From Alphaproteobacteria bacterium (lineage in GTDB: Bacteria > Pseudomonadota > Alphaproteobacteria > MPNO01 > UBA830): a DNA stretch of 64,000 nt. Both the position numbers and the translations under genes were made by a program. This document shows positions 34,192-59,970 of this stretch, one piece after another. The stretch is from assembly GCA_965243135.1 (NCBI GenBank), contig OZ251539.1, positions 4,630,236 through 4,694,235 of the forward strand. Direction: 5' to 3'. The notes under the pieces are model-generated. The model was not told the origin of the DNA. It ran no database searches and worked only from the letters and a program-made list of their open reading frames with translations. Each line of letters opens with the position of its first letter. Positions within the stretch are counted from its first letter, which is position 1.

Positions 34192-34267
34192 GTCCCCTTC
34201 GTCTAGCGGCCTAGGACATCGGCCTCTCACGCCGAAAACAGGGGTTCGAGTCCCCTAGGGGACGCCA
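34192..34267 (+). tRNA. tRNA-Glu (anticodon CUC)
   Basis: Clean cloverleaf: acceptor GTCCCCT/AGGGGAC, D arm GTCT/GGAC, anticodon stem TCGGC/GCCGA with loop CTCTCAC, T arm AGGGG-TTCGAGT-CCCCT, discriminator G and an encoded CCA. The 5' half is nearly identical to E. coli tRNA-Glu. Confidence 0.85.
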
Positions 34268-41489: not shown

Positions 41490-41510
41490 CCGCGGGCGCG
41501 TCGCCCGGCC

Positions 41511-41966: not shown

Positions 41967-43249
41967 GCCTCGCTCTCTTCGTCGCGTCTTTTCTGTTTCT
42001 CCTGTTCGCGGGCCTGCCGGTCGCGTGGACCATGGTCGCCTCCTCCGTCGTATGGCTGGCCGCGAGCGGGCAGATGGCGTTTCTCGCGGTTCTGCCGGAG
42101 CGCATCTTCCAGGGAATCGACGTATTCGTCCTGATGGCGATCCCGCTGTTCGTGCTGGCGGGCGAACTCGTCAACGAGGGCCGCATCACGGACAGGCTGG
42201 TCGCGTTCGCGAACGTGCTGTTCGGCTGGATGCCGGGCGGACTGGCGCAAGTGAACATCGGCACGTCCATCCTGTTTTCCGGCATCACGGGCGTCGCGCT
42301 GGGCGATATCGCGGCGCTCGGCAAGGTGTTCATTCCGTCGATGGCGAAAAACGGCTATTCGCCGGCCTACGCCGCGGCCGTGACGGCTTCCTCGTCGATA
42401 ATCGGACCCATGGTCCCGCCGTCGCTGATCGTCGTGATCTACGGCTCGATAACGGGCGTGTCCATCGGCGCGCTGTTCGCCGCCTGCGTGGTTCCGGGCC
42501 TCCTGATCGGGTTCTGTCAGATGGCGCTCGTCTGGTTTCAGGCGCGAAGGCGAGGCTTCGTCGGCGTGGAGGTCGACCGTTCCCTGCCCGCGGTCGCGAC
42601 GTCGGCCCGGCGGGCGCTGCCTCCCCTGCTGGTCCCGGTCATCGTATTGGCCGGCATTCTGGGCGGCGTCATGACTCCGACCGAAGCGGGCGGGCTCGCC
42701 GCCTTTTACGCCTTGGCGATCGCGGTCCTTCTTTATCGCTCGATAGGCTTGCGGCAGTTCCTGTCGGCGCTCGAGCGGTCCGCCGTCTTCTCGTCCCAGC
42801 TGCTGATCATCGTCGGATGCGGCGCCGTTTTCACCTGGGTGATGGGCATGGAAAACGTGCCGTCGCTGGTCGAGCGGACGGTGAAGGAATTCGACGTCCA
42901 TCCCGTTCTGCTGCTGTTGACGCTGAATCTCGTCATGCTCGTCCTCGGAATGTTCGTCGATCCGACTGCCGCCATCATCCTGTTCGTGCCGATTCTGGGG
43001 GCGATGGCGCAAGCCGCGGGCGTCGACCCGGTTCATTTCGGCGCCATCGCCATCCTGAATCTCAATATCGGCCTCCTGACGCCGCCGCTGGGCGTCTGCC
43101 TTTTCGCGGCTGAGCGCATCGCCGGCTGCGGCCTCGCGGCGCTGCTGCGCGAGACCTGGCCTTTTTTGACCGTCAGCCTGGTCGCGTTGGTCCTCGTGAC
43201 CTGCCTGCCGCAGCTCAGCCTGTGGCTGCCGCGCGCGATCGGGCTGTGA
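41963..43249 (+). CDS. dctM: TRAP transporter large permease
   Basis: 428-aa polytopic DctM-like protein, with a GTGA overlap with dctQ. Confidence 0.85.
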   Translation: MSLALFVASFLFLLFAGLPVAWTMVASSVVWLAASGQMAFLAVLPERIFQGIDVFVLMAIPLFVLAGELVNEGRITDRLVAFANVLFGWMPGGLAQVNIGTSILFSGITGVALGDIAALGKVFIPSMAKNGYSPAYAAAVTASSSIIGPMVPPSLIVVIYGSITGVSIGALFAACVVPGLLIGFCQMALVWFQARRRGFVGVEVDRSLPAVATSARRALPPLLVPVIVLAGILGGVMTPTEAGGLAAFYALAIAVLLYRSIGLRQFLSALERSAVFSSQLLIIVGCGAVFTWVMGMENVPSLVERTVKEFDVHPVLLLLTLNLVMLVLGMFVDPTAAIILFVPILGAMAQAAGVDPVHFGAIAILNLNIGLLTPPLGVCLFAAERIAGCGLAALLRETWPFLTVSLVALVLVTCLPQLSLWLPRAIGL

Positions 43250-43257
43250 GCGGCGGA

Positions 43258-43854
43258 ATGCGGAAGCGCGCGGATCTCGCCGGCGAAGCGAAGGGCCTGC
43301 GCATCGGCGAACGCCTGTCGCAGATCAGGAAAGCCAAGGGGCTTACCCTCGCCCGGCTGAGCGAGACGACGGCGATTTCGGAAGCCACGCTGTCGCGCGC
43401 CGAAAACGGCATCTCGCCCCTCAACGCGCACAACTTGTACATCCTCGCCAGGGTGCTGGACGTCGACGTGGTGTCTTTCTTCCGGTCGGACGCCGAGACT
43501 TTCGCGAGAGGGAAGCGCGCGATAACGAAAGCCGGCGAAGGGGAGCGCGGGTCGACGCAGCGCTACGACCTCGAACTGCTGTGCGCCGAATTGTCGGCGA
43601 AGAGGATGGTGCCCAGCCGGAACCGGATCACCGCCCGCTCCCTGGAGGAAGCCGGCGGCCTGCGCGCTCACGAGGGGGAGGAATTCCTGTACGTTCTGTC
43701 GGGCGAGGTGGCGATCTACACGGATCTGTACGCGCCCGCGATCATGGAAACGGGGGACAGCATGTATTTCGACGGAAACACGGCGCACGCTTACGTAGCG
43801 ACGGGCGACGGCCCGGCCGAGATACTCGTGGTCACGACGGTCGATCATGGATGA
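43258..43854 (+). CDS. XRE-family HTH plus cupin domain transcriptional regulator
   Basis: HTH_3 (LSQIRKAKGLTLARLSETTAISEATLSRAENG) and a C-terminal cupin. Confidence 0.75.
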   Translation: MRKRADLAGEAKGLRIGERLSQIRKAKGLTLARLSETTAISEATLSRAENGISPLNAHNLYILARVLDVDVVSFFRSDAETFARGKRAITKAGEGERGSTQRYDLELLCAELSAKRMVPSRNRITARSLEEAGGLRAHEGEEFLYVLSGEVAIYTDLYAPAIMETGDSMYFDGNTAHAYVATGDGPAEILVVTTVDHG

Positions 43855-44305
43855 CGGGTACGCCCACGTCTGCTCGATACGGATCGCCCGTCCCGCGGAG
43901 ACCGTTCTGGCGTTTCTGAGCGCGCCCGAGCTGTTGTCGAGCTGGGCGGCGGGCATGGGGCGCGCAAAGATCCACGACGATGGGCTTGTCGAGGGCGCGT
44001 TTCCGGATACGGGCGAACCGATCTGGGCGCGGATCGACGCGGATCCGAAGCGCAATGCGATTCATTACCATCTCGGCCCGGAACCCTCGTCTCTGGCGCC
44101 GCGAATCGAGATACGAATCGTTCCCGGACCGGTCCTGGAGTCCGATGCCGACTCCTGCGTCGTCTCGATGATCGCGTGGCGGCAGAACGGCATGGACGAC
44201 GTTCGTTGGCGAAGCCTCAAATCCGGCCACGAAGCCGAAATCCTCGAAATCAAGAGGCTGATCGAAAGCCAAAAATACCGGGTACAAAAAGGGTGCTTCT
44301 GCTAG
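43847..44305 (+). CDS. hypothetical protein
   Basis: 152-aa ORF with backbone-like GC content and no recognisable motif. It is the last native gene before island 1. Confidence 0.45.
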   Translation: MDDGYAHVCSIRIARPAETVLAFLSAPELLSSWAAGMGRAKIHDDGLVEGAFPDTGEPIWARIDADPKRNAIHYHLGPEPSSLAPRIEIRIVPGPVLESDADSCVVSMIAWRQNGMDDVRWRSLKSGHEAEILEIKRLIESQKYRVQKGCFC

Positions 44306-44507
44306 TGGAGCTGCTAGAAATAAAAGTACCCCATCCATGGGAACAAACGATCTATTGCTCACCTGACCATGCTTCTTGACAGTACCATCGAGACCGTGCT
44401 ATGAACATTCAAGTAATCCATTTTGAGGAAATTCTGACTGAATTTTCGCACGACAAATTTGGATGTTATGGTATCCTGAATGGATTAGGGATGAGGATCA
44501 AGAAATC

Positions 44508-45953
44508 ATGAAGGATCAAACATATCAATTGTTGCATAATTTTTCCAACTTTGTCGCAGTTGGCGATTGTTGGGATGCTGCGCGAGAATTAATGGCTACG
44601 CATCAGATAATTGAGGTTTCTGAGACCGAAGAATTTATTTTAGGAATCAAGAAATTATCAGAAATTGCGAGAAAAGGTGATGACATTGATCGTCTCATTG
44701 CAATCGATCTAATCGTTCGCATTTCTAAATTTGTAAAAAAATTGCGCCCGAAATCGGAGGAAGCGCTTCGTCAAATTCTAACGGATAATATACCGCCTTC
44801 TTCATTGTTATCAAACACAAAAAAAATCCCAGAGGGAGCGAAGCCAGCAGAACTACGCGAGAATTTGGCAATAGCGCTGAGCTATGCATCAGGAAATTGG
44901 GTCGTTCCATATGTTGTGCGTTCCTTGTTGGAGGAAGATCGTTCACAAAGATGTCGTATGGAATTAGCTCGCCAACTAGCCACACGAGAAAAATCTATTG
45001 ACAAATGGTTGCTTTCAGTAATTAATTTTCTTATGAAAGGCGTAAACGAAAAGGAAAGAAATGTCGAAATCGCCGTGACAAGACTGCGCGATACTACAAC
45101 AGCGCTTCTTGGTGCCGCGAGAGAAAACCGGAATAATCTCGGGATATCGGGAAACTCCGGCGTTAATTTTTCTAAGATGTGTTCCCTTTTCACGCCAAAT
45201 TCGTCGTTTGCTAAACGCCCAAAATCTCTAGAGTCTTGTTCAATTGAAGTAGCGCGCTTTCTGGATGAAATATTTGCTAATAAACTCATGCTTATCGTGG
45301 AACCAGAAGCGTACTCTGTGTTGGATATAATTCAAAAATGGTGGCAACCACTTTCTTATCCACAACGATTGCGAAATGCATTAGATCCAATAAAGGATAA
45401 AATACTTACTGGTATCACATTAAGAGCCCGCTGGGGGCAGAAATCTGATAAGCTTCGATCTCGTCTCGGACAGGCATATGGCGATCAACGGTTAGCATTT
45501 AATCGTCTTGAACAAATTGCAACGGAGGAAACAGGTCTTCCTTCAGATATTGATGATTGGTTGAGGGGGCGTCGTCGAAAGACGAGCGGCGTAGAAAATG
45601 CGACTCTCGCTCTTCAATCAGTGGAAGAAGATAGTTTAATTGATGCTTTTGCACCGCTGCTTCTTGAAGCGGAAGTCGTACTGAAATCTAGACTCGATCC
45701 TTCGTTGTCTAATGAAAATCGAACCAGTCTTCGACTCGCAGAAAATGTAAGATCTTTGGCGATAAGACATGGATTAGAAGTTGTTGGAGAACGAGATGAA
45801 ATAGTGGAATATCTGCCAGTATGTCATCAGACTTCTTCGGGTGAAATACCACCGGATCCGTCTGTTAAAATCGTTCGTCCCATGGTGGTGCGCAAGCGAT
45901 ACGATGGAAGTGAAGACGTTGTTGTTAAGGCAATTGTAACCGCGGTATCATGA
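44508..45953 (+). CDS. hypothetical all-helical protein (about 481 aa), island 1 gene A
   Basis: AT-rich ORF with a GAGGA RBS before the ATG at 44508 (an alternative ATG is at 44463). It has HEAT/ARM-like helical repeats and no catalytic motif I can recognise. Confidence 0.55.
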   Translation: MKDQTYQLLHNFSNFVAVGDCWDAARELMATHQIIEVSETEEFILGIKKLSEIARKGDDIDRLIAIDLIVRISKFVKKLRPKSEEALRQILTDNIPPSSLLSNTKKIPEGAKPAELRENLAIALSYASGNWVVPYVVRSLLEEDRSQRCRMELARQLATREKSIDKWLLSVINFLMKGVNEKERNVEIAVTRLRDTTTALLGAARENRNNLGISGNSGVNFSKMCSLFTPNSSFAKRPKSLESCSIEVARFLDEIFANKLMLIVEPEAYSVLDIIQKWWQPLSYPQRLRNALDPIKDKILTGITLRARWGQKSDKLRSRLGQAYGDQRLAFNRLEQIATEETGLPSDIDDWLRGRRRKTSGVENATLALQSVEEDSLIDAFAPLLLEAEVVLKSRLDPSLSNENRTSLRLAENVRSLAIRHGLEVVGERDEIVEYLPVCHQTSSGEIPPDPSVKIVRPMVVRKRYDGSEDVVVKAIVTAVS

Positions 45954-45984
45954 TGCCAACGCGCTAACCGAAAAAGGGGGTGTC

Positions 45985-46773
45985 CATGGAAAATATGATC
46001 GGGTTGGATAGGCCAGCGCTTCTTTCAAGTGTACTAGATGAACGGTCAAGAAACCCCTTAGGTTGCGGCGTGATCAGGTAGTGTCTTTTTTCGAGTCGTT
46101 GCCGTATGTGGCGATGGAGACCTGCGTCAGCGCTCATCACTGGGGTCGGCGTCTGAGAGATACGAGGTAGAACTTTTCCGGCCCAGATCCTTACCTCAAA
46201 TAGAACAAGAACGACGCACTGACAGCGAGGCGGTACAACGCCCGCAATTGCCGTCCCGAGGAGCAAGGACGTACACGGCGTGCTGTCGTTTCACAGGACG
46301 CCGAAAATGTTGGCTAAGTAGGGTGCCTAGAACTCCGACGAGTGCGCGGAGTTCGGCGTGGTCGCATTCCAGAACTGTGCCGATGTGAACCAGCCGGTTC
46401 ATCCGGGACGACAGCCTGCTGCCTGAAGAAGCTCGCTTGGCGACGTCGGTCAACCTTTTCGATCAGATCTGGAAGACCGCCGAGATGCAGGAGGCTCCGC
46501 GGAGTTGCACAGCGAGTTAGGCGACAATTCGAAAAAACTCCAGACGTCAGCGTGGCCACCGCGCTGACGGCATCGCTCGGGCTAGTGCCGCGGCAGAACG
46601 GTCCCGGTTCACCGTATCTGAAGGTGCTCATGGAAACAGTGAACTAGGTCGCCGTGGCGATTGCCAACCGAAACGTACGAATCGCTCGGGTGATGGTCCA
46701 CAGCGTCCAATCTTATAGACCAAGGATTGCCGAGTCTCCAACCATACAGGCGCAGGCCGAAGTTCACCCGTAA
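45985..46773 (+). pseudogene. degraded IS110-family transposase remnant
   Basis: IS110 N-terminal and C-terminal signatures are scattered over three frames with multiple stops (MENMIGLD, FFESLPYVAMETCVSAHHWGRRL, TASLGLVPRQNGPG, VAIANRNVRIARVM). It is too short for an intact element. Confidence 0.6.
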
Positions 46774-46855
46774 GTTGCATCCGAAAAATGCTTGCAACCC
46801 GTGGACGTCCATGCAAGTATGTGATGCATCCATTGAATCAGCAGAGGCGATAACC

Positions 46856-48436
46856 ATGCCGGATATTAATCGCGCGGCTTTTGATATTCTGGGACCAAAC
46901 GAGGACGAATTAAGAATTTGTTTGGATTTTGGTACTGCCATGTCGAAAGCATGGGCATCAAGATATTCTGATGACAGTACCATACCCCTTGTATTGGGAA
47001 GGGCGGCCGGCGAGGGTAATGAGTTGGCGGTCCCTTCGTCTATATTTATTTCTCAATCTGGAAAGATTTTCTTTGGAAGGCAAGCGGAAATTCAACATAG
47101 AAAGGAAATAGGAAATCGGCGCCGAAGATTTGATAACTTGAAATCAGTTCTTTGCGAATCAAAAGTTGATCGAGAACTTGACGAGATAGGAGTATCGCGA
47201 GAAATTGATCCAACGGGTTCTCTTACAATAGGTGGTTTGTTAACTCTATATATTGCTTGGTTAACTGATCTTTCTCTTGTAGAATTGGAACGGCAGATAC
47301 ATGCAGCAAATGAACCCAACTCTAGCGGACAAAATCCGAACAATCTTCGCTATGTTCGTAGGAGATTTGCTATCCCATGCTTTGAAAATTCTTATGACGA
47401 ATCTGTTGGTGGGGATCGACGGGCTCGATGGGCAAGAAAAATAATGAGGAAAGCATTGCTTCGGGCTCAAATTATCGCCGATACATTGAATGGGCATTGG
47501 GACGATCTAACAGTATACGATGCTTTGAGATTATTTGAAACCGTCCGGGGCATGGAAATTTCTAGGTGTGATCGATTGCTAGCAAGGGACGCCTCAGTTC
47601 GGGAGCCAGTTGCTGCAGGAGCATCGCGATTTGAAGAAATGATTACCGAAGGTAAGGCTAGGAGGATGCTGCTAGTAATCGATGCGGGCGCAGGGACCAC
47701 GGATTTTGCTATTTTTCAGGTTTTTTCTGATCAAGAAACGCGGTACGCATTAATTTCATCCGGGGTTTCTATGTGTCTAATTGCAGGAAATAGAGTCGAT
47801 CAGGTTTTAATGGAAGTCATTCTTGATGAATGTGGCGTTGATTTAGCTCAAAATAACAAGGAGGATAGAGAATCTTTCAAATGGGAACTGGAATCAAATC
47901 TCCGAAACATAAAGCAAATCCTGTTTCAGGAAAAGCGAGCAAGAATAGATTTTTTGTCAGATGTCACGGGGGAATTGCATATTGACACTCTTCTCGAAGA
48001 TCATAGATATATGAAATTAGGAGAGGAATTGTGCACAATCCGCGATAGGCTAATTGATGACCTTTTTCGAAAAAATCCTAAAGAATTGGATGATCTAAAA
48101 AAGCATATGCAAATGCTAAGTAAACCGTTTCCTATACATGTATTGCTGACGGGAGGTAGTGGTGAGCAGCCAATAATAAAAGATTTAGCCAAAGGTCATA
48201 TTGTAGTTGACGGATTAAATATTGAATTTAAGGAGGTTCGGGCTCTGCCAAATTGGATCAATGATCTACAGCGTGATCAGGCGGAATTAGTTGCTAGGGC
48301 ATATCCGCAATGTGCGGTCTCTATAGGTGGTTCGGCTCGCGAAGTTCCCCAAGAACGAAACGATTTAGTTTCCATGGTGAATCCCGCAGCGCCAGGAGAG
48401 AGACGACTTGAAGGCAATTACATGAAGGGCGTATAA
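46856..48436 (+). CDS. Hsp70-like (ASKHA superfamily) ATPase, island 1 gene B
   Basis: Phosphate-1 (ICLDFGTAMSKAW), phosphate-2 (LLVIDAGAGTTDFAIF) and adenosine (VLLTGGSGEQPIIKDL) motifs arranged as in the Hsp70 nucleotide-binding domain. It has no peptide-binding-domain-like C-terminus. Confidence 0.65.
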   Translation: MPDINRAAFDILGPNEDELRICLDFGTAMSKAWASRYSDDSTIPLVLGRAAGEGNELAVPSSIFISQSGKIFFGRQAEIQHRKEIGNRRRRFDNLKSVLCESKVDRELDEIGVSREIDPTGSLTIGGLLTLYIAWLTDLSLVELERQIHAANEPNSSGQNPNNLRYVRRRFAIPCFENSYDESVGGDRRARWARKIMRKALLRAQIIADTLNGHWDDLTVYDALRLFETVRGMEISRCDRLLARDASVREPVAAGASRFEEMITEGKARRMLLVIDAGAGTTDFAIFQVFSDQETRYALISSGVSMCLIAGNRVDQVLMEVILDECGVDLAQNNKEDRESFKWELESNLRNIKQILFQEKRARIDFLSDVTGELHIDTLLEDHRYMKLGEELCTIRDRLIDDLFRKNPKELDDLKKHMQMLSKPFPIHVLLTGGSGEQPIIKDLAKGHIVVDGLNIEFKEVRALPNWINDLQRDQAELVARAYPQCAVSIGGSAREVPQERNDLVSMVNPAAPGERRLEGNYMKGV

Positions 48437-48540
48437 AGTATTAGTCAGGGAACAAGGCTGTTGGCCGGACTGCTTCACTCGGGATGGGCGGGAGAGCTTG
48501 TTGTTGCAATGACTTCCAATCGCGAGACCTTGGAACAAAG

Positions 48541-50684: not shown

Positions 50685-51476
50685 CTAAAGCGCCTTTACC
50701 TGTCCGCCGTCGATATCGAACATCGCGCCGGTCGCGTAGCTTGCCCGCGCAGAAGCCAGAAAGACTACGAAAGAAGCCAGCTCCCGGGGCTGGCCGTAGC
50801 GCTTCAGAACCGTTTCGCCGGCAAGAACGGCCGTTGCTTCCTCCACCGATACGCCGTCTTCCTTCGCTTTCTCCTCCGCGAGATAGACCATTCGTTGCGT
50901 CGCGAAAGGGCCGGGATTGACGACGTTGGACAGAATTCCGTGCGGCCCGCCCTCTTCCGCGAGCGCCTTGCTGACGTTCTGGAGCGCCGCGTTGCAGAAG
51001 CCGGCCGTGATCGCGTGCGCATGCGGCTGCCGGCCGTGGGTGCCCGCGATGAACAGGATTCGTCCGCCGTTCCCGCGCTTCGCCATTCCCAAGAAGACCT
51101 CACGGGCGAGGCGGATCTGGGCGAGAATCTTCACTTCGACCGCGTCCCGCCACTGCCGGTCCGTCATTTCCGCGAAGGGAGCCGTCGCCGCGCCGCCCGA
51201 ATTGGCCACCACGATGTCGATGCCGCCGAACCGAGTTTCCGCTTCGCGGACCATTCGAACGACAGCGTCGGCGTCGGTCATGTCGGCGACGATGCCGTGG
51301 ACCTCGCCGCCGGTCGCCGACCTCAAGCGCTCGACGGCGCCGGCTAGACGGTCGGCGTTTCGGGCGGAGACGACAACCCGCGCGCCCTCGGCCGCGAATT
51401 CCTCGGCGACGAAGACGCCGAGGCCGCCGCTGGCCGCCGATACCAAGGCCGTCTTGCCCTTCAGTTCCAAGTCCAT
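50685..51476 (-). CDS. SDR-family oxidoreductase
   Basis: TALVSAASGGLG Rossmann motif. The start is the internal Met MDLELKGK. Confidence 0.85.
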   Translation of the reverse strand: MDLELKGKTALVSAASGGLGVFVAEEFAAEGARVVVSARNADRLAGAVERLRSATGGEVHGIVADMTDADAVVRMVREAETRFGGIDIVVANSGGAATAPFAEMTDRQWRDAVEVKILAQIRLAREVFLGMAKRGNGGRILFIAGTHGRQPHAHAITAGFCNAALQNVSKALAEEGGPHGILSNVVNPGPFATQRMVYLAEEKAKEDGVSVEEATAVLAGETVLKRYGQPRELASFVVFLASARASYATGAMFDIDGGQVKAL

Positions 51477-51814
51477 GGCCTTCCGCTCCGCATCTTCGAT
51501 ACAGGCATTTTTCACTTTCCCCCGGAAGCCGTCCGAAAGCAACAGCGGGAAGAGGGAACCTTGCAGGGCCGCCCGGGCCGGCTTTCCGTCCCGCGCGACG
51601 TTCGGGCGCGGTTGGAACGGCCGGTAGTATTTTGCGACGATGGTGGCGGCCGAGCGGGAAAAAGCCGTATTGTGAACAAGGCCGTAACACTCGGAACCGT
51701 GAGGGATCGAACCGCAGTTTGGCGGTTATCTGCGGGCGATAGGGCAGTATTGTTGCCGTGCGGGTCGTCGGCACCGTCCTGCCGGGACCGAATGAGCACG
51801 CGGAGGAGAAACGG

Positions 51815-53053
51815 ATGATCGAACTGGCTCGTCGCATTCGACTGGGCGAGGATTCGATGCTCAAGTTGAAGAGCGTTCGCTCGATGGCGGGCCGCGATAC
51901 CGGTCCGCAACGTAGTGAATTCGCGGACGAGCTGGCCGCCATGGCCAACGGCCGGGGCGGCACTCTGGTCCTCGGCGTGGACGACGACACTCGTCGGATC
52001 GAAGGCATTCCGCTTGCCGAGCTTGACGCGGTCGAAGGCTGGGTCCGCGAAATTTGCGACGACTTCGTGAAACCCGCGCTCGATGTCGACATTTTGAAAC
52101 AGGAACTGAAAGACGGCAGCGGAGAACTCGTCCCGATTATTGTCGTGGAGACCCCTCGGAGCCTGTTCGTGCACGAGAGTCCCGGCGGATACTTCCGCAG
52201 GATCGGCGGCTCGAAGCGCAAGATGGAGCCGGAGGCTCTCGCCCGTCTGTTTCAGGAGCGGAGCCAGACCCGGCAGATCCGCTTCGACGAATTGATCGTG
52301 CCCGGCACCGGTCCGTCCGACTTGCAGTATTCGCTGACGCACCGGTTCATGCGATCAAACGAAGGACTTCCCGCCAATTCCCGCTTCTCCGGCGAAGTTC
52401 TCGATACATTGCGGAAGCTTTGCATCGTGGCCGACGAGGATGGACAAGCGCGGCTTACGCTCTCGGGCGCGCTTCTTTGCACAGCGGAACCGCAGCGGTG
52501 GCTGCGCCACGCGTACATTCAGGCCGTCAACTACGCAGGCGACCGGATCGACACCAAGTACCAAACCGACGCAAGGGATATCGGCGGACCTCTGGACGAG
52601 CAGGTGGCCGGAACACTGGACTTCGTGCGGCGCAACATGCTGGTGCGCGCCGCCAAGACAAACGCGCGGATGGACCGCCCGCAGTTCAGCGAGCGCGCCG
52701 TGTTCGAGGCGCTTGTGAACGCGGTCGCGCATCGCGACTACTCGCTGGCGGGCGCTCGGATTCGCCTCCACATGTTCGGCGACCGGCTTGAGCTCTACGT
52801 TCCCGGCGGGTTGGCCAGCACGCTTGCCCCGGACAGCCTCCATCTGCGGCAGTCGAACCGGAACAACGTTATCGTGTCCCTGCTTGCCCGATGCGCCGCG
52901 CCATCCGGGATCGGGCGCATGCGTCTGATGGACGTACGCGGCGACGGAGTGCCGATCATTCGCGCAGAGTGCGAAAAATTGTCGGGGAGATTGCCGGAGT
53001 ACAGACTGATCGACGAAAACGAGCTGCGACTCGTAATTCCGGCCGCTGGATAG
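51815..53053 (+). CDS. Schlafen-like AlbA_2 plus HATPase_c_4 domain protein (putative ATP-binding transcriptional regulator)
   Basis: N-terminal AlbA_2 pattern (ELAAMANGRGGTLVLGVDDDTRRIEG) and C-terminal HATPase_c_4 pattern (EALVNAVAHRDYSLAGARIRLHMFGDRLELYVPGGL). It is the first gene of island 2. Confidence 0.7.
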   Translation: MIELARRIRLGEDSMLKLKSVRSMAGRDTGPQRSEFADELAAMANGRGGTLVLGVDDDTRRIEGIPLAELDAVEGWVREICDDFVKPALDVDILKQELKDGSGELVPIIVVETPRSLFVHESPGGYFRRIGGSKRKMEPEALARLFQERSQTRQIRFDELIVPGTGPSDLQYSLTHRFMRSNEGLPANSRFSGEVLDTLRKLCIVADEDGQARLTLSGALLCTAEPQRWLRHAYIQAVNYAGDRIDTKYQTDARDIGGPLDEQVAGTLDFVRRNMLVRAAKTNARMDRPQFSERAVFEALVNAVAHRDYSLAGARIRLHMFGDRLELYVPGGLASTLAPDSLHLRQSNRNNVIVSLLARCAAPSGIGRMRLMDVRGDGVPIIRAECEKLSGRLPEYRLIDENELRLVIPAAG

Positions 53054-53070
53054 TCCGTTCACCGGCGGCC

Positions 53071-53424
53071 GTCTGGAAGCAAATCGTCTGCCTCGCGAAC
53101 TCCCGAAAGCGGTCGGGTCGTTACGTTGCGGGCCGCGAATGGTCGGAGACGGACGGCGCGGGGGCATGGGTCCGACCCGTCAGCAAGCGGGACGGCCAGG
53201 AAGTATCGGAACACGAGCAGCGGTACGAGGACGGTGCCGACCCGCGGTTGCTCGACATTATCGGCTTGCCTCTTCTGAAAGCCTGCCCTGAAGATTGGCA
53301 GACCGAAAACTGGTTGCTCGATCCGGAACGGTACTGGCAGAAGAACGGAAAATACTCGCGCTTCGATCTGGCGAAGCTCGCCGACGCGCTTGAACCGCTC
53401 TGGATCGACGGGTACGGCACCTAA
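53071..53424 (+). CDS. small hypothetical protein with no canonical start codon (possible N-terminal half of a frameshifted gene)
   Basis: Conserved-looking N-terminus (KQIVCLANSRKRSGRYVAGREWS...GAWVRPVS) begins right after the upstream stop. There is no ATG, GTG or TTG before the conserved segment. Confidence 0.3.
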   Translation, partial: VWKQIVCLANSRKRSGRYVAGREWSETDGAGAWVRPVSKRDGQEVSEHEQRYEDGADPRLLDIIGLPLLKACPEDWQTENWLLDPERYWQKNGKYSRFDLAKLADALEPLWIDGYGT

Positions 53425-53752
53425 TAACGGCCAAAACGACAAGGTTCCGCTCGGGCTGATCTCGTCGATTTCCGATTCGCTGCGGCTGATCAGGGTCGAG
53501 CGGCTTGAACTGGCCGTGTTCAGCTCGGGCGAGGCGTTCGGCAACGCCAAGCGGCGCGTGCAGGGGCGCTTCGAATTTTCGGGCCAGGAGTACGCGTTAT
53601 GGGTGACGGATCCTGCCTGCGAAAAGAAGTACTTTGCTAAGCTGGACGGCACCTATGCGACAGGCGGGAGCTATCTGACGATCAGCCTTGGAGAGGGGTA
53701 TAAGGGCGCTTGCTACAAGCTCGTTGCCGCCGTCATCGGGGTGGATGAATAA
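53390..53752 (+). CDS. small hypothetical protein overlapping the previous ORF in another frame (possible C-terminal half of the same gene)
   Basis: It overlaps the previous ORF by 35 nt in a different frame (a one-nucleotide shift). The ...YALWVTDPACEKKYFAKLDG...GACYKLVAAVIGVDE segment has no internal start codon near its beginning. Confidence 0.3.
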   Translation: MNRSGSTGTAPNNGQNDKVPLGLISSISDSLRLIRVERLELAVFSSGEAFGNAKRRVQGRFEFSGQEYALWVTDPACEKKYFAKLDGTYATGGSYLTISLGEGYKGACYKLVAAVIGVDE

Positions 53753-53756
53753 AGAT

Positions 53757-54374
53757 ATGGAAAACAGCGTTCTTACTATCGGCCACTCCAATCATTCTTG
53801 GGAAGCCTTCGCGGCTCTCCTCGAACTGCACGGCATCGGGGCCGTGGCGGATGTGCGCTCGGCACCGTACAGCCGCTTCAACCCGCAGTTTGATCGCGAA
53901 ACCTTCGCGGCCGCTCTCAAGGGGCGAGGCATAGCTTACGTCTATCTCGGGAGCGAACTCGGCGGCCGCTCCGAAGATCCTGGATGTTACGAGGGCGGCC
54001 GCATCCGTTATGACCGCATCGCGCTGACGGATCGTTTCCGGGACGGTATCGAACGCGTGGTTCGAGGGGCCGGAAAACACCGCATCGCTCTCATGTGCGC
54101 AGAGAAAGAGCCTCTCGATTGCCACCGAACCCTTCTCGTCGCGCCCGCTCTTGAACGGGAGGGTATAGACGTCATGCATGTTCACGCGGACGGCGTTCTT
54201 GAACCGAATGCCGAAGCGATGGACGGGTTGCTGGATAAATTCGACCTCCGCCCGGACGGCGATCTGTTCCAGCGGTCCCGCGAGGAGTTGGTCGCGGAAG
54301 CGATAGCGCTGCAAGCCAGGCGCGTCGCCCATGCTGACGACAGACCTGCGGGAGGGCGGGAGCGAAGCCGATGA
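53757..54374 (+). CDS. DUF488 family protein (paralog 1)
   Basis: LTIGHSNHS...AVADVRSAPYSRFNPQF...GIAYVYLGSELGG matches the DUF488 signature. Confidence 0.75.
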   Translation: MENSVLTIGHSNHSWEAFAALLELHGIGAVADVRSAPYSRFNPQFDRETFAAALKGRGIAYVYLGSELGGRSEDPGCYEGGRIRYDRIALTDRFRDGIERVVRGAGKHRIALMCAEKEPLDCHRTLLVAPALEREGIDVMHVHADGVLEPNAEAMDGLLDKFDLRPDGDLFQRSREELVAEAIALQARRVAHADDRPAGGRERSR

Positions 54375-54859
54375 GAGTGCTGACCATAGGATTCACGAAG
54401 AAGCCGGCGCAGCGGTTTTTCGGGCTGCTGCGCGAGTCCGGCGCCAGAAGAGTTGTCGACGTGAGGCTCAACACCGGATCGCAACTCGCCGGGTTCGCGA
54501 AAAAGCGGGATCTCGCGTGGTTCCTCGAAGAAATTTGCGGGATCGAATACGTCCATGCGCCGGATCTGGCGCCTTCGAAGGAACTGCAGGACGACTACCG
54601 GAAGAAGAGGATCGACTGGAGCGCTTACGAAGACCGGTTTGTGGATCTGATGCGCGAACGGCGGATCGAGGATACGGTTTCGAAGGAGATGGTGGACAGC
54701 GGCTGCCTGCTGTGCAGCGAGGATCAGCCCCATCATTGTCACCGGCGGCTGGTTGCCGAATATCTGACGACTTGTTGGGGCAATATCGAGGTCGAGCATT
54801 TGGGAATGTCGGGACCCGACGCGCGGTGGCCGCAGCCCGGGAAACCTCTTTCGGAGTAG
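54371..54859 (+). CDS. DUF488 family protein (paralog 2, divergent)
   Basis: LTIGFTKKPAQRFFGLLRESGARRVVDVRLNTGSQLAGF...GIEYVHAPDLAPS shows the same architecture. It has an ATGA overlap with paralog 1. Confidence 0.7.
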   Translation: MRVLTIGFTKKPAQRFFGLLRESGARRVVDVRLNTGSQLAGFAKKRDLAWFLEEICGIEYVHAPDLAPSKELQDDYRKKRIDWSAYEDRFVDLMRERRIEDTVSKEMVDSGCLLCSEDQPHHCHRRLVAEYLTTCWGNIEVEHLGMSGPDARWPQPGKPLSE

Positions 54860-55043
54860 CGGGTCGTCCGGAAAGGAAGCGTTTCCTGCCGAGCTTCTCC
54901 GCAAATTATCTGTGTCGGCCTCAAATCGCGTGTGGTTTCTTCGTGACCGGGCGGGCTGGTTGAGCGGTATTTCGGCTGAAGCTTGCCGGATGCGGGGCGG
55001 AGACGCGGTTGCCGCATTCCGCCGAGATCTGCGGCAAGCTGTT

Positions 55044-55069
55044 TGCTCCTGCGAAACGCGACTATAATG
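55044..55069 (+). promoter_or_regulatory. candidate sigma70-type promoter for the TIR-SLOG-TIR genes
   Basis: TTGCTC-N14-TATAAT sits about 83 nt upstream of the TIR gene start, in the only sizeable gap of the island (54860-55151). Confidence 0.3.
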
Positions 55070-55151
55070 CAGGCGTGCGGAAAGGCGCGGCGGCGGACCT
55101 CGCGCCTCGGCATGATCAAGCACTGCTAAGGGTGCCAAACGGGTATCTGAC

Positions 55152-56318
55152 ATGGATTCGTCCACTCGTCCGCTTTTTGCACTGTATGTGATTTGGCACC
55201 CTACATTTGCGTTTGGTCGAGAGATCGCGGATCGGCTCCGGTCGCATTTTGTCCGCAATCTCTACAAGACCGTTGGCGGAGATAATGGGGTGAGCGTTCT
55301 TGAGCGCAGCGAACCTTTGCCGGGTAAGCGCACGCCTTTGCCGATCGACTGGGACGAAGCGGAGATGACGGCAGCCGTTGTGATCGCGGAGTCCGGGCTC
55401 GTCGATGATCGCGATTGGACCGACTACATCCGCAGCGTCTCCCGAAGCGCGAGGACGAGAGGGGATTCCGCCGGTTTCTTTCCCGTCACGGTGGATTCCC
55501 GCGGAACCGAGTTCGGGTTCGAGGAACAGGCGCTGCGCTGGGACCGCTGGGGCGAACCCGACGCTGAGCGATGTCGACGCATGACCATCGACCTGACCCA
55601 CGAGTTTTGCCGTATGCTGCGACACCAGCTCGGGCGACCAGACAGCGGGCAGATGCCGCTCGAACAGCGTCTGGAGAAGATCCAGATTTTCATCAGCCAC
55701 ACCAAGCATGACGACGATGGCGAAATCGTGGCTCGCGGCATCCGCGACTGGATCCATGAACGCAGTCCGCTTTCGAGCTTCTTTGATGTCCACGATATTC
55801 CGCCTGGGCAGTCGGTCGAGGAGGTCTTGCTGCATCAGCTTGGCAAAGGAGCGGTCATGGTGGTGCACTCCGATTCCTATTCGTCGCGCGAATGGTGTCG
55901 TCGCGAGGTAATTGAGGCAAAGCGTCGCTTGGTGCCGATGGTCGTTGTCGATTGCGTGCGCGATATCGATTTCCGCGGAATGCCGTATCTCGGCAACGTA
56001 CCGATCATCCGCATGGATCCGGACCGGAGAGATCGGATAGAGACCGTTGCAGGTTGCCTCCTCGACGAAGTCTTCCGCACTTGGTTGTGGCTTTATCGCA
56101 TTGAGCGTTATCGGGCAGAGGCTTCCGGCGTATTGTTTACGGCTCGACCGCCCGAATTGATTGTCTTGGCGGCGATGTCTTTTCGTCGCGGAGAAGTCGA
56201 CCCAGTGATCGTCTATCCTGATCCCCTGTTGAGCGCCGAGGAAGGACATTTGTTCTCGAAGGTTGCTCCAAACGTGCGCGTTCAAACTTTGACGGAATGG
56301 CTGGAGGAACGACAATGA
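55152..56318 (+). CDS. TIR-domain protein (388 aa) with an additional N-terminal domain
   Basis: Central TIR signature IFISHTKHDDDGEIVARGIRDWIHE...VMVVHSDSYSSREWCRREVIEA. The N-terminal 170 aa (LFALYVIWHP...) may be a second degenerate TIR-like domain. About 90 aa extend C-terminally. Confidence 0.7.
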   Translation: MDSSTRPLFALYVIWHPTFAFGREIADRLRSHFVRNLYKTVGGDNGVSVLERSEPLPGKRTPLPIDWDEAEMTAAVVIAESGLVDDRDWTDYIRSVSRSARTRGDSAGFFPVTVDSRGTEFGFEEQALRWDRWGEPDAERCRRMTIDLTHEFCRMLRHQLGRPDSGQMPLEQRLEKIQIFISHTKHDDDGEIVARGIRDWIHERSPLSSFFDVHDIPPGQSVEEVLLHQLGKGAVMVVHSDSYSSREWCRREVIEAKRRLVPMVVVDCVRDIDFRGMPYLGNVPIIRMDPDRRDRIETVAGCLLDEVFRTWLWLYRIERYRAEASGVLFTARPPELIVLAAMSFRRGEVDPVIVYPDPLLSAEEGHLFSKVAPNVRVQTLTEWLEERQ

Positions 56319-57148
56319 CTCCAAGCAATGCACCATCCGCCATCGGAATTTCGATTTCAGAGAGTCCCGACATGCAGGCGCTCGGGTTAAGCGATGGCCA
56401 CTTGCGCGACGCCATGGCCGAGGTCGCGCTGCACTTGCTTGCCTCGGGAAGGAGCCTAGCCTATGGCGGAGATTTACGGCGCCATGGATTCACCGAGCTT
56501 TTGTTCGAGCTGGTCGGACGCTATCGAAACCATCCGCGACATCGCGGCACGATATCCGTAACCGATTATCTGGCTTGGCCCGTTCATATTAAAATGACCT
56601 CGAACGAGCTCGCTGCGTTCGCCGCCGAACACGATGCGGCTGTTTCTCTCGTTTTCCTTGCGCGAGACGGCGTGCGCCTCGAACGGGAACAGCGAATGAG
56701 GCTTTCTGAACGCGAACCGGATGACGACGAGTGGACGGAAGGACTAACGTCCATGCGGACCGCCATGCGCCGAGAAATTCAGGCTCGAGTAGTGTTGGGC
56801 GGCAGGGTCGAGGGCTACAAGGGAACCATGCCGGGGATCGCCGAAGAGGCCTATCTTTCTCTCGAAGCCAGTCAGCCGATCTTCCTGCTTGGCGGTTTCG
56901 GCGGGTGCGCCCGCGACATTGCCGAGACAATCGGGCTTGTCGACCGTTGGGCCGGCTCTAGGGGCGATTGGGACGGTCGCGGTCGCTTTCGTTCGTATTC
57001 CCCGAACGAACTCCGCAACGGCTTGTCCCGGGAGGAGAACGTCGTTCTCGCACGGACGCCGCACATCCAGGAGGCGGTCGCCTTGGTATTGCGAGGCCTC
57101 CGCCGGATCCTCAGCTGGAGAGATAGCGATGCACAAGGTATTCATTAG
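56315..57148 (+). CDS. standalone SLOG (LOG/ThsA-STALD-like Rossmann) domain protein
   Basis: LAYGGDLRRHGFTELL and PIFLLGGFGGCARDIAE match the SLOG/LOG GGxG...PGGxGTxxE pattern. It has ATGA coupling to the TIR gene and no SIR2, Macro or TM module. Confidence 0.6.
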   Translation: MTPSNAPSAIGISISESPDMQALGLSDGHLRDAMAEVALHLLASGRSLAYGGDLRRHGFTELLFELVGRYRNHPRHRGTISVTDYLAWPVHIKMTSNELAAFAAEHDAAVSLVFLARDGVRLEREQRMRLSEREPDDDEWTEGLTSMRTAMRREIQARVVLGGRVEGYKGTMPGIAEEAYLSLEASQPIFLLGGFGGCARDIAETIGLVDRWAGSRGDWDGRGRFRSYSPNELRNGLSREENVVLARTPHIQEAVALVLRGLRRILSWRDSDAQGIH

Positions 57149-57728
57149 TTATCACCATGAGAGGGATCAGGGGTACAAGGATTCCTTGATCGAGTTTGGC
57201 GTGAAGAATTCCGTATTCGTGGACAGGTCTGTCGATCCTGGCGACATTTCGGAGGAATTGAGCGACGAGCGGATCCGTCACATAATCAGAGACAAGTATC
57301 TTAGGGATTCCACGGTTACCATTGTGTTGGTTGGAAAAGAGACGAAACACCGGAAACACGTCGACTGGGAGATTCACACCAGCATGTACGACGGGACCGC
57401 GAGCAGAAGATCGGGAATAGTGGTCATCAACCTGCCGGGAACCTCCGATTACTTTGGCGCTCCTTATGGAGAGGCCGAGAAAAAACTCTTGTATCCAGAC
57501 GTTACGAACTGGATGAGTATAGATTCACGAGCGGAGTACGAACGCAGATATCCCTACATGCCTGATCGCATCGTGGACAATCTCGTGAAATCCGACGTAA
57601 AAATTTCGGTCGTTCCTTGGGGCAGGCTAAATGCGGAAAGACTCGAATTTCTGATAGAAGCGGCCTTTAGCAATCGTTTTGAGTGCGGATACGATCTGAG
57701 CAGACGAATGAGGCGGGCAAACTCGTAA
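57129..57728 (+). CDS. ThsB-like TIR protein (DUF1863-type)
   Basis: MHKVFISYHHERD...VTIVLVGKETKHRKHVDWEI closely parallels the Thoeris ThsB/DUF1863 TIR layout. Its GC content is markedly lower than the backbone. Confidence 0.75.
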   Translation: MHKVFISYHHERDQGYKDSLIEFGVKNSVFVDRSVDPGDISEELSDERIRHIIRDKYLRDSTVTIVLVGKETKHRKHVDWEIHTSMYDGTASRRSGIVVINLPGTSDYFGAPYGEAEKKLLYPDVTNWMSIDSRAEYERRYPYMPDRIVDNLVKSDVKISVVPWGRLNAERLEFLIEAAFSNRFECGYDLSRRMRRANS

Positions 57729-57897
57729 TACAGGGTTGCGTCGAAGCCGGAGGCCTGCGCCGACGCTCATCAATGGGGCGGGCCTTGCACGGCCGCAAAG
57801 CGAAGCTCGCGGACGAAACCGTTCGTCGACAAGAACGACCTTGCCGGTGCCGGTGCGATCTGCGAGGCGGCGGCCGTCGCGAGGCCGGTCGAAGAGG

Positions 57898-58371
57898 CTA
57901 CTCCGCGTCCGTGAACGACTGCAGGAAATTCTGCATCCCGACCTGATCGATCAGCGCGATCTGCGTTTCGAGCCAGTCGATGTGCTCCTCTTCGCTTTCC
58001 ATGATTTCGACGAACAGCTCGCGAGATACGTAATCGTTGACGCGCTCGCAATCGGCGACCGCGGCGATCAGATCCTTGCGCGACTCCATTTCGAGCAGCA
58101 GGTCGCATTCCAGCGCTTCCTTGACGTTCTCGCCGATCCTTAGACGGCCCAGATCCTGAAGGTTGGGAAGGCCCTCCAGATAGAGGATCCGGTTTATCAG
58201 CCGGTCCGCATGCTTCATCTCGTCGACCGATTCCCGGTATTCCATCTCGTCGAGCTTCCCGAAGCCCCAGTTCTTGAACATCCGGGCATGCAGGAAATAC
58301 TGGTTGATCGCCGTCAGCTCGTTCTTGAGCACCAGGTTCAGGTGCCGGATGACGTCCTTGTCGCCTTTCAT
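57898..58371 (-). CDS. bfr: bacterioferritin
   Basis: 157-aa Bfr with ferroxidase-centre residues ([23 protein letters not shown]). Confidence 0.9.
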
Positions 58372-59317: not shown

Positions 59318-59970
59318 CCGTCATCTCCCCGCGCCGCCTTTTCCTTGAGGCCGGAAACGCCGCTTCGGCGCGCCAGCTCGGCGGCGATCTCCCTCGGCGC
59401 GATCTCCGCGTCGACCCATGCCGCCAGCAGGTGGCAGAGGAGGCCGTCGCTTTCCGCGACCAGCGCTCCCCTGTTCCTGGCGGCTGCCGCGATAACGACC
59501 TCGAGCGCCTCTTCTCCCAGTTTCAGGGCAATCTTTTCGGTTCCGCGCTCGAACAGTTGCGCTATTTTTGGCGCGGCAGCCGCGTTTCCTCTGCCGGATT
59601 CGATCTCGGCATAAAGCCGTTCGACGACGTTTCCGAAGCCGTTCGTCGTGCCGGTTCGCCCGGAGGCCGTGTGGCGGCGGCGGCTCTGGCGCGCCAGCCC
59701 GGAGGAGACCTCCGCTAGAGCGATTTCCGCATCGGCCCACGCCACCAGCAGATGGTAGAGAAGGTCGGCGCTCTCCGCGACCAGCGCCTCCCTGTCTTTC
59801 ATGACCGCCGCGATCACGGCTTCCACTGCTTCTTCGCCGAGTTTCTGCGCAATCTTCGCGGTTCCGCGTTCGAACAACTGCGCTGTGTACGACGCCGCGG
59901 GATCGCCGCCCCTGCGGGATTCGATCACGGCGTGAAGCCGTTCGACGGCTTCTCCGAAGCCGTTCGTCAC
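59314..59970 (-). CDS. hisE: tandem fused phosphoribosyl-ATP pyrophosphatase (HisE-HisE)
   Basis: One 218-aa ORF contains two complete HisE-like domains ([15 protein letters not shown]...LLYHLLV and [15 protein letters not shown]...LLCHLLA). It has a GTGA overlap with the hisF stop and an ATGA overlap with the HIT gene. Confidence 0.75.

What the first reader, a model, noticed from the sequence alone, without database searches (positions are those of the whole stretch)
51543..57897. Island 2: about 6.3-kb lower-GC insertion between an SDR gene and bfr carrying a regulator, DUF488 pair and the TIR/SLOG module
All eight ORFs are co-directional and mostly overlap by 4 nt, which suggests an operon-like horizontally acquired unit. 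Composition, especially of the last gene, departs clearly from the high-GC flanks. No integrase or tRNA anchors the island, so the insertion mechanism is unclear.
Basis: seen in the sequence. Interest (0 to 1): 0.7.

Follow-up and report, generated by a model that had tools for sequence, protein, structure and literature searches.

The report
Two-layer anti-phage defence locus
The stretch between the dehydrogenase gene and the bacterioferritin gene is not one inserted operon but two stacked candidate anti-phage systems of different ages: an older four-gene block that has one dead gene here, and a separately acquired three-gene Thoeris-like cassette.

Summary
Window 51543-57897 holds only co-directional genes between an SDR gene and bfr. 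GC is 0.60 against a 0.66 background, and there is no integrase, tRNA or flanking repeat.

The "eight ORFs" are seven genes, because two are halves of a dead DuOB gene. Only two junctions are 4-nt overlaps.

Comparison with related metagenome contigs splits the island in two.

- **Older block (51815-54859):** AlbA_2/HATPase_c_4, DuOB, DUF488, DUF488-N3a. The last three match PADLOC candidate PDC-M45. The block sits at this spot in every relative that shares both flanks, and its composition is near-native.
- **Younger cassette (about 55040-57747):** a long TIR protein, a cluster-2 SLOG protein and a ThsB-type TIR. It is absent in one relative (L170) and replaced by IS-linked DNA in another (L169). 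It recurs alone in unrelated genomes and on plasmids, and its GC is always 8-13 points below that of the host.

The long TIR and the SLOG are fused into one protein in three plasmids from other phyla. I read the cassette as a Thoeris-like system: the ThsB-type TIR makes a signal and a TIR·SLOG effector degrades NAD+. Its architecture is closest to type III Thoeris, but it falls below the family cut-off. Defence function has not been tested for either block.

The parts
51477..51814 (.). Intergenic region between the divergent SDR and AlbA_2 genes; left edge of the older block
   Evidence: Gene models (GGAGGAGA ribosome-binding site before ATG 51815). Nucleotide homology with L163/L169/L170 runs through it. 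No tRNA-like match.
51815..53053 (+). AlbA_2 (Schlafen-like) + HATPase_c_4 protein, 412 aa; linked component of the DuOB/DUF488 system
   Evidence: Pfam PF04326 51.4 bits and PF13749 54 bits. Same gene directly upstream of DuOB in L163, L169, L170 and in the unrelated contexts L171/L172 at 70% identity.
53065..53752 (+). DuOB (dual OB-fold) gene, a pseudogene in this genome: start codon lost (GCG at 53065-53067) and +1 frameshift at 53422-53425
   Evidence: Pfam PF22557 split over two frames. PADLOC PDC-M45A 139.9 and 124 bits. Intact 228-233 aa orthologues in L163, L169, L170. Alignment shows both lesions.
53757..54374 (+). DUF488 protein (PDC-M45B), 205 aa, with the C-A-E...C-H-R motif
   Evidence: Pfam PF04343 84.6 bits; PADLOC PDLC04657 257.5 bits. 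Motif read from the translation.
54371..54859 (+). DUF488-N3a protein (PDC-M45C), 162 aa; ATGA overlap with the preceding gene
   Evidence: Pfam PF04343 94.4 bits and PF22751 46.7 bits; PADLOC PDLC04658 230.4 bits. Overlap confirmed.
54860..55039 (.). Spacer still shared with the cassette-less relatives; end of the older block
   Evidence: Homology with L170 runs to 54891 and with L169 to 55042. The four-way alignment diverges after ...GGCAAGC.
55040..57747 (+). Inserted 2.7-kb three-gene TIR / SLOG / TIR cassette (Thoeris-like); an indel relative to L170 and L169
   Evidence: Absent in L170 and replaced in L169. The right breakpoint at 57747/57749 recurs in L163, L164 and L169. GC 0.569, tetranucleotide z 2.7-3.7. 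The same triad occurs alone in L166-L168 and on pKpnB199.
55063..55068 (+). TATAAT box just inside the left end of the cassette; possible own promoter (inferred)
   Evidence: Conserved between the window and L163; position. No good -35 box, and not called by the consensus scan.
55152..56318 (+). Long TIR protein ("TIR_2"), 388 aa: N-terminal alpha/beta domain of unknown function, TIR domain (about 178-321), small C-terminal domain; proposed NADase half of the effector
56315..57148 (+). Stand-alone SLOG protein (Pfam cluster 2), 277 aa; ATGA overlap with TIR_2; proposed signal-binding half of the effector
57129..57728 (+). ThsB-type TIR protein, 199 aa, catalytic Glu candidate E81 (DWEIH); proposed infection sensor and signal synthase
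   Evidence: PF08937 74.4 bits; PADLOC ThsB models. 45-50% identical over about 100 aa to type VI Thoeris TIR domains.
57748..57897 (.). Spacer to the convergent bfr gene; right flank of the variable slot
   Evidence: Homology with L163, L164 and L169 resumes at 57749. L163 carries an extra 249 nt at this point.

Best explanation
The region is a composite defence locus built in at least two steps at a variable slot next to bfr.

**Layer 1 (51815-54859)** is a four-gene candidate system.
- It encodes an AlbA_2/HATPase_c_4 protein, a dual-OB nucleic-acid binder (DuOB) and two DUF488 enzymes with intact Cys/His/Arg motifs.
- It was present before the sampled relatives diverged.
- In this genome DuOB has lost its start codon and carries a frameshift, so the system is probably inactive.
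- Its mechanism is inferred only. DuOB would bind single-stranded or end structures of invading nucleic acid. The DUF488 pair would process phosphate or sugar-phosphate groups at termini. AlbA_2 would act as sensor or regulator.

**Layer 2 (about 55040-57747)** is a later insertion: a self-contained three-gene Thoeris-like cassette.
- Inferred mechanism: the ThsB-type TIR detects infection and converts NAD+ into a cyclic ADP-ribose isomer. 2'cADPR is the best guess, from its nearest characterised relatives.
- The cluster-2 SLOG protein binds the signal.
- SLOG is translationally coupled to, and probably complexed with, the long TIR protein. It switches on that TIR as an NADase, depleting NAD+ and aborting the infection.

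**Shown:** gene content, both DuOB lesions, presence or absence across relatives, cassette modularity, and TIR-SLOG fusions.

**Inferred:** defence function, the identity of the signal, and the roles of the parts.
For: **Two layers**
- L170 has the order M20-hydrolase-SDR | AlbA_2-DuOB-DUF488-DUF488N3a | bfr-his, with 461 nt in place of window 54892-57872.
- L169 has IS630-like genes plus unknown genes in the same slot.
- L163, L164, L165, L001 and L002 carry the cassette next to bfr.
- Nucleotide identity of the island genes tracks that of the flanks.

**Cassette autonomy and mobility**
- The same three genes occur in unrelated contexts (L166/L167, L168). Nucleotide homology there is confined to the three coding sequences.
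- Cassette GC is 8-13 points below the host in every case.
- On the conjugative plasmid pKpnB199 the triad is bracketed by ISNCY elements.

**TIR_2 and SLOG as one unit**
- ATGA overlap in all copies.
- Fusion proteins of 686-689 aa on Gloeothece, Priestia and Aureispira plasmids align with TIR_2 over residues 1-380 and with SLOG over residues 402-685. Small TIR genes sit next to them.

**Fold and catalytic residues**
- The ThsB-like protein is 45-50% identical to type VI Thoeris TIRs. Those systems signal with 2'cADPR (bioRxiv 10.64898/2025.12.03.692087).

**Layer 1**
- PADLOC PDC-M45 A/B/C hits of 124-257 bits.
- AlbA_2 and DuOB are co-inherited in L171/L172.
- DuOB lesions.
Against: - No experiment exists for either system. 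PDC-M45 is one of 145 untested candidates (bioRxiv 10.1101/2024.01.29.577857).
- The cassette is not recognised by PADLOC v2 beyond generic TIR/ThsB hits. It is also not named by NCBIfam: the SLOG protein has no hit, and TIR_2 scores 36.5 bits against a cut-off of 220 for ThcB4.
- Which protein is the effector is inferred. Both TIRs keep a catalytic Glu, so both could be signal makers, with SLOG (which has LOG-like PG..EE and GG motifs) as an enzymatic effector.
- The 2'cADPR guess rests on 45-50% identity to a TIR cluster, and I could not establish which members of that cluster were assayed.
- For layer 1, no relative with SDR directly next to bfr was found, so its status as an insertion is not demonstrated. 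Absence of the cassette in L170 could be a loss rather than a gain in the window lineage.
- The DuOB frameshift could in principle be an assembly error. The independent start-codon loss argues against that.
Confidence: 0.65

Rival explanations
1. One reading: one horizontally acquired, operon-like 6.3-kb unit that arrived in a single event between SDR and bfr.
For: All genes are co-directional and tightly packed within each half. GC is below the flanks. No relative was found with SDR directly adjacent to bfr.
Against: L170 and L169 have the left four genes without the right three. The right three occur alone elsewhere. A 292-nt gap containing the homology breakpoint separates the halves. The two halves differ in composition: z about 1 against about 3.
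Confidence: 0.05
2. Multi-sensor Thoeris with SLOG as the effector, following the logic described for type III. Both TIR proteins are infection sensors and signal synthases for different phages. The stand-alone SLOG protein is the executioner, for example a LOG-like N-glycosidase acting on a nucleotide or on NAD-derived substrates.
Against: TIR_2 and SLOG are fused into one polypeptide in three phyla and are always translationally coupled. That fits effector plus sensor (as in SIR2-SLOG ThsA) better than two independent sensors. TIR_2 is conserved over its full 388 aa together with SLOG.
Confidence: 0.2
3. The whole block is ancestral, native content of this lineage with no defence role. The low GC merely reflects the amino-acid composition or expression level of these genes.
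For: The island is at the same position in all relatives at 85-96% nucleotide identity, with divergence like the flanks. The left half is compositionally unremarkable.
Against: The cassette is polymorphic among relatives. Homologues at 70-80% protein identity sit in unrelated genomes and on plasmids next to IS elements, whereas bfr is at most 81% identical to any GTDB species representative. All seven genes belong to families known from defence contexts.
Confidence: 0.08

Closest known systems
Type III Thoeris (P. aeruginosa L0872; van den Berg et al. 2024, Cell Host Microbe 32:1427; known to me only through citing papers)
   Same: One operon combining more than one TIR-domain protein with a SLOG-domain protein of a non-STALD type. 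The long TIR protein here has a TIR domain flanked by N- and C-terminal extensions, and its best named match is NCBIfam ThcB4. The small TIR is of the ThsB/DUF1863 type, like type III TIR2 and TIR3 (29% identity, E 1e-6).
   Different: Two TIRs instead of four. TIR_2 scores 36.5 bits against the ThcB4 cut-off of 220. SLOG and the ThsB-like protein hit no NCBIfam model. I could not obtain the sequence of the type III SLOG effector, so homology of the SLOG parts is untested. The signalling of type III is itself uncharacterised.
Type I Thoeris (ThsA SIR2-SLOG + ThsB)
   Different: There is no SIR2 domain; a TIR plus an unknown N-terminal domain takes its place. Effector and sensor are separate polypeptides here. 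The SLOG belongs to Pfam cluster 2 and shows no sequence-level match to any PDB chain.
Type VI Thoeris (ThsB + DUF6650 effector ThsG; 2'cADPR signal; bioRxiv 10.64898/2025.12.03.692087)
   Same: The ThsB-like protein and its plasmid orthologues are closest to type VI TIRs: 45-54% identity, up to 186 aligned residues.
   Different: No DUF6650 protein in the island. The partner is TIR_2·SLOG instead. This is an effector swap within one TIR clade.
PADLOC candidate system PDC-M45 (Payne et al. 2024 preprint)
   Same: DuOB, DUF488 and DUF488 match models A, B and C at 124-257 bits, in the same order.
   Different: Here and in L171/L172 an AlbA_2/HATPase_c_4 gene precedes the triad. DuOB is a pseudogene in this genome. 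PDC-M45 has never been tested.
Classical integrase/tRNA-anchored genomic island
   Same: Foreign-type cargo, lower GC, and presence/absence polymorphism for the cassette.
   Different: No integrase, tRNA, direct repeats or transposase in the window copy. The junctions show at most a 4-nt AAGC microhomology. It behaves as a recombination hot-spot slot whose content differs between lineages.

Membership tests
Thoeris (generic) | ThsB-type TIR protein with a catalytic glutamate | tested here: met
   PF08937 74.4 bits. DWEIH motif with E81 in the translation. 45-50% identity to validated Thoeris TIR domains.
Thoeris (generic) | Effector carrying a small-molecule-sensing domain, encoded in the same operon | tested here: met
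Thoeris (generic) | Phage-triggered production of an ADPR-derived signal that activates the effector and protects against phage | not testable with these tools
   Requires phage challenge, LC-MS and NADase assays.
Type III Thoeris | Multiple TIR-domain proteins plus a SLOG-domain effector in one operon | tested here: met
   Two TIR proteins and one SLOG protein at 55152-57728. Definition taken.
Type III Thoeris | Equivalog-level sequence match to the named type III proteins (NCBIfam NF058526 ThcB4, cut-off 220 bits) | tested here: not met
   TIR_2 scores 36.5 bits, over the TIR domain only. SLOG and the ThsB-like protein have no NCBIfam hit even at E = 10.
Type III Thoeris | SLOG effector homologous to ThsD of P. 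aeruginosa L0872 | not tested
   Neither the sequence of ThsD nor the original paper was available.
Type I Thoeris | ThsA with a SIR2 NADase domain fused to SLOG | tested here: not met
   No SIR2 domain in any island protein.
Type VI Thoeris | DUF6650 (PF20355) effector next to the TIR | tested here: not met
   No PF20355 hit among the island proteins.
PADLOC PDC-M45 | Adjacent genes matching models A (DuOB), B and C (DUF488) | tested here: met
   PDLC04653 139.9 and 124 bits (two halves), PDLC04657 257.5 bits, PDLC04658 230.4 bits.
PADLOC PDC-M45 | All component genes intact | tested here: not met
   DuOB lacks a start codon and is frameshifted in the window. It is intact in L163, L169 and L170.
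Classical genomic island | Integrase or transposase, tRNA target and flanking direct repeats | tested here: not met
Classical genomic island | Presence/absence polymorphism among relatives with conserved flanks | tested here: met
   Met for 55040-57747 only (L170 and L169 against the window and L163). Not seen for 51815-54859.

The most novel reading that the evidence does not exclude
The cassette represents an experimentally uncharacterised Thoeris type in which TIR domains play both roles. A type VI-like ThsB would make a plant-type 2'cADPR signal. A cluster-2 SLOG subunit would read it and switch on a second, SARM1-like TIR as the NAD+-destroying executioner. Effector and receptor would be split into two translationally coupled polypeptides in proteobacteria and fused in cyanobacteria, Bacillota and Bacteroidota. 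A further possibility is that the conserved 170-residue N-terminal domain of the long TIR protein is a new sensor or oligomerisation module.
Probability: 0.4. Interest if true: 0.6.

Novelty: new variant of a known kind. Interest (0 to 1): 0.45.

Why it matters
- The work turns a vague "low-GC island" into a dated, two-step history of a defence hot spot. One system is decaying while another has been slotted in beside it.
- It flags a widespread family (about 1,900 SLOG and 1,100 long-TIR homologues) that current defence-finding libraries do not name. The family has a TIR·SLOG + ThsB architecture.
- The split and fused forms give a direct, testable prediction of which proteins interact. The ThsB clade shared with type VI Thoeris predicts the signal.
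- If confirmed, it would add a TIR-executed branch to Thoeris signalling.
- Nothing here overturns current ideas. Defence islands, effector swapping and pseudogenised systems are all expected.

Tried and rejected
- **GTDB scan with bfr:** the best hit was only 81% identical and there was no synteny.
- **Exact-protein look-ups:** SDR with the long start, the hydrolase, DUF488C and P0241 (the 100%-identical TIR_2 on a 6.1-Mb NCBI contig) all returned nothing.
- **JGI metagenome scan with SDR:** it found only distant marine relatives (SDR 59-82% identical). They conserve just the M20-hydrolase-SDR triad and have differing upstream neighbours, so they are uninformative about the older block.
- **A tRNA-like T-arm I thought I saw at 51695-51745:** not supported by Rfam.
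- **Flanking repeats:** none beyond chance.
- **An apparent DUF488 fusion in L171:** it is a frameshifted gene, not a fusion.
- **The N-terminal domain of TIR_2 as a degenerate TIR:** hhalign gives probability 0.1%.
- **The L169 slot genes:** no PADLOC hits.
- **Literature:** nothing found on DuOB. The primary papers on type III Thoeris, SLOG classification (Burroughs et al. 2015) and the DUF488/rhodanese-phosphatase work (Burroughs and Aravind 2023) are not held. What I say about the latter two comes from memory.
- **Two paper searches were wasted on badly chosen terms.**
Full report
**1. What is in the sequence**

Seven genes lie between the SDR gene (50685-51476, minus strand; Pfam adh_short) and bfr (57898-58371, minus strand; Ferritin). 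All seven are on the plus strand.

| Coordinates | Gene | Size | Main evidence |
|---|---|---|---|
| 51815-53053 | AlbA_2/HATPase_c_4 | 412 aa | PF04326, PF13749 |
| 53065-53752 | DuOB (PF22557) | two frames | broken gene |
| 53757-54374 | DUF488 | 205 aa | PF04343 |
| 54371-54859 | DUF488-N3a | 162 aa | PF04343, PF22751 |
| 55152-56318 | long TIR protein, "TIR_2" | 388 aa | PF13676 |
| 56315-57148 | cluster-2 SLOG (PF18163) | 277 aa | 244.8 bits |
| 57129-57728 | ThsB-type TIR (PF08937) | 199 aa | 74.4 bits |

PADLOC assigns DuOB/DUF488/DUF488 to candidate system PDC-M45 A/B/C at 124-257 bits. For the last three genes it gives only generic TIR/ThsB hits.

Only two junctions (54371 and 56315) are ATGA overlaps. 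A 292-nt gap separates DUF488-N3a from TIR_2.

**2. Composition**

- The island has GC 0.601 against 0.658 for the rest of the window, but the departure is graded.
- The left four genes have GC 0.618, GC3 0.67-0.76 and a tetranucleotide distance of z = 0.8-1.6.
- The right three genes have GC 0.569, GC3 0.60-0.66 (flanking genes 0.76-0.87) and z = 2.7-3.7.
- The separate island at 44-48.5 kb reaches z = 8-10.
- 9.5% of background 6.3-kb windows are as GC-poor as the whole island.
- No tRNA, integrase or flanking repeat is present.

**3. Relatives**

The GTDB species set holds no close relative: the best bfr match is 81% identical, in a Thalassobaculaceae MAG, with no synteny. Metagenome contigs do provide close relatives.

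- **L163** (76.9 kb) carries the entire island in the same place: M20 peptidase-hydrolase-SDR | seven genes | bfr-L-PSP-HIT-his operon. Its DuOB is an intact 228 aa.
- **L165, L164, L001 and L002** also have TIR-SLOG-ThsB, or its end, next to bfr.
- **L170 and L169**, two more distant contigs, are decisive.
  - L170 reads SDR | AlbA_2-DuOB-DUF488-DUF488N3a | bfr, with 461 nt where the window has 54892-57872.
  - L169 has an IS630-like HTH/DDE_3 gene pair plus unknown ORFs (7 kb) in place of window 55043-57748.
- Four-way alignments put the cassette boundaries at about 55040 and 57747. L163 has an extra 249 nt at the right junction.
- Per-gene nucleotide identities of the island genes resemble the flanks. 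Against L163 they are 88.7-93.2% (flanks 90.5-95.4%). Against L170 they are 83.6-88.9% (flanks 87.9-90.6%). This indicates vertical descent after acquisition.
- Distant marine relatives (SDR 59-82% identical) conserve only the M20-hydrolase-SDR triad.

The locus therefore has two layers. The older block is present in all relatives that share both flanks. The younger cassette occupies a slot whose content differs between lineages.

**4. The dead gene**

Relative to L163, the window's DuOB has GTG changed to GCG at the start (53065-53067). It also has a +1 A that creates ACC TAA TAA CGG at 53419-53430. Two independent lesions make a sequencing artefact unlikely. The other three genes of the block are full length.

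**5. The older block as a system**

AlbA_2/HATPase_c_4 sits directly upstream of DuOB and DUF488 in the unrelated contexts L171 and L172 as well. There AlbA_2 is 70% and DuOB 71% identical, so it is probably part of the system rather than an island regulator.

- DuOB is a large, conserved family with 3254 homologues.
- Both DUF488 proteins keep the C-x-E...C-H-R motif (translations).
- PDC-M45 is one of 145 untested candidates found by "guilt by embedding".
- From memory, not verified here: Burroughs and Aravind (2023) place DUF488 in the rhodanese-phosphatase superfamily and predict nucleic-acid end-processing roles in conflict systems.
- My mechanistic reading is inference only: an OB-fold binder plus a phosphatase-like pair acting on termini.

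**6. The cassette**

*Distribution.* The SLOG protein has 1914 homologues, and the top 120 are at least 70% identical. TIR_2 has 1147 homologues, conserved over the full length.

*Independent contexts.*
- The triad occurs alone next to haem-biosynthesis genes (L166/L167) and next to transposition genes (L168). Nucleotide homology there is limited to the three coding sequences. Cassette GC is 8-13 points below the host in every case.
- It is on the conjugative K. pneumoniae plasmid pKpnB199 between ISNCY elements, at 47-50% identity for all three proteins.
- It is on a P. veronii plasmid between integrase and transposase genes.
- In a Rhizobium plasmid it is interrupted by an IS3.

*Fusions.* In Gloeothece, Priestia and Aureispira plasmids, TIR_2 and SLOG form one 686-689-aa protein. 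Residues 1-380 align with TIR_2 (E about 1e-47) and residues 402-685 align with SLOG (E 1e-41 to 1e-51). Small TIR genes lie adjacent. This fusion evidence, plus the invariable ATGA coupling, argues that TIR_2 and SLOG act as one unit.

*Structure.*
- Its N-terminal domain of about 165 residues has no detectable relative.
- No PDB sequence relative exists for SLOG.

*The small TIR.* It is 45-50% identical to type VI Thoeris TIR domains from Table S1 of Yirmiya et al. 2025, and the Priestia orthologue is 53% identical. Those systems signal with 2'cADPR.

**7. Mechanism proposed**

The ThsB-like TIR senses infection and makes a cADPR isomer, with 2'cADPR as the best guess. SLOG binds it. The associated TIR_2 hydrolyses NAD+, giving abortive infection.

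The main rival is type III logic: both TIRs are sensors and SLOG is the effector. It is kept at about 0.2 because both TIRs retain the catalytic Glu and SLOG carries LOG-like motifs.

**8. Relation to known systems**

- In architecture the cassette fits the published description of type III Thoeris: several TIRs plus a non-STALD SLOG effector.
- It fails the only sequence test available. NCBIfam ThcB4 gives 36.5 bits against a cut-off of 220, and SLOG and the ThsB-like protein hit nothing.
- It lacks SIR2 (type I) and DUF6650 (type VI).
- I therefore file it as a new variant of the Thoeris kind, not as a member of a named type.

**9. Verdict**

The finding is real but misdescribed. It is a two-layer defence hot spot rather than a single inserted operon. 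It is ordinary in kind. It has moderate interest because the TIR·SLOG + ThsB family is widespread and unnamed by the libraries searched here, and it comes with clear, testable predictions.

Noticed in passing
window 44256-48539: The strongly AT-rich "Island 1" (GC about 0.42, tetranucleotide z 8-10) is a clean 4.3-kb insertion relative to L169 and L170, which have 66 nt there. It is also missing in L163. Its two large ORFs (44463-45953 and 46727-48436) have no Pfam domain but match PADLOC candidate PDC-M61 A and B (84 and 271 bits). The conserved M20-hydrolase-SDR triad is thus flanked by defence cargo on both sides.
   Followed up: partly
window 36890-48540 and 34748-35368: In L163 the M20 peptidase gene abuts sequence equivalent to window about 36889, so 11.6 kb of the window is absent or rearranged there. 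A further 620 nt just downstream of tRNA-Glu (34192-34267) is also missing. L169 and L170 do share 38896-44255 with the window. This region is structurally variable between relatives.
   Followed up: no
window 17000-30000, lowest at 24001-25000: A broad stretch with GC 0.59-0.63 (0.51 at 24-25 kb) supplies all the background windows that are as GC-poor as the island under study. It may be further foreign DNA.
   Followed up: no
window 41746-41842: ARAGORN calls a 97-nt tRNA-Arg(CCT) that Rfam does not confirm at gathering threshold. It is probably a false positive.
   Followed up: partly
window 59359-59669 and 59680-59966 (hisE/PRA-PH gene): In blastn against relatives, the two halves of the 218-aa PRA-PH gene cross-match each other at 76-82% nucleotide identity. 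This suggests an internal tandem duplication of the domain.
   Followed up: no
L171 7707-8684: In an unrelated genome carrying AlbA_2-DuOB-DUF488, the first DUF488 gene matches only over its first 77 residues and then reads out of frame. This is either another decaying copy of the system or a long-read assembly error.
   Followed up: partly
L177 (Rhizobium bangladeshense plasmid p4) 1976-4801: The long-TIR gene of a homologous TIR-SLOG pair is truncated by an IS3 insertion, leaving the SLOG gene stranded. This is another example of turnover in this family.
   Followed up: no
L179 (Aureispira plasmid) 1781-6286: A TIR-SLOG fusion gene is surrounded by three small TIR genes and a nucleoside 2-deoxyribosyltransferase-domain gene. 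This multi-TIR layout resembles the description of type III Thoeris.
   Followed up: no
L169 9344-16071: The slot that holds the cassette in the window contains an IS630-like HTH/DDE_3 pair and six small ORFs with no Pfam or PADLOC match. Its cargo is unknown.
   Followed up: partly
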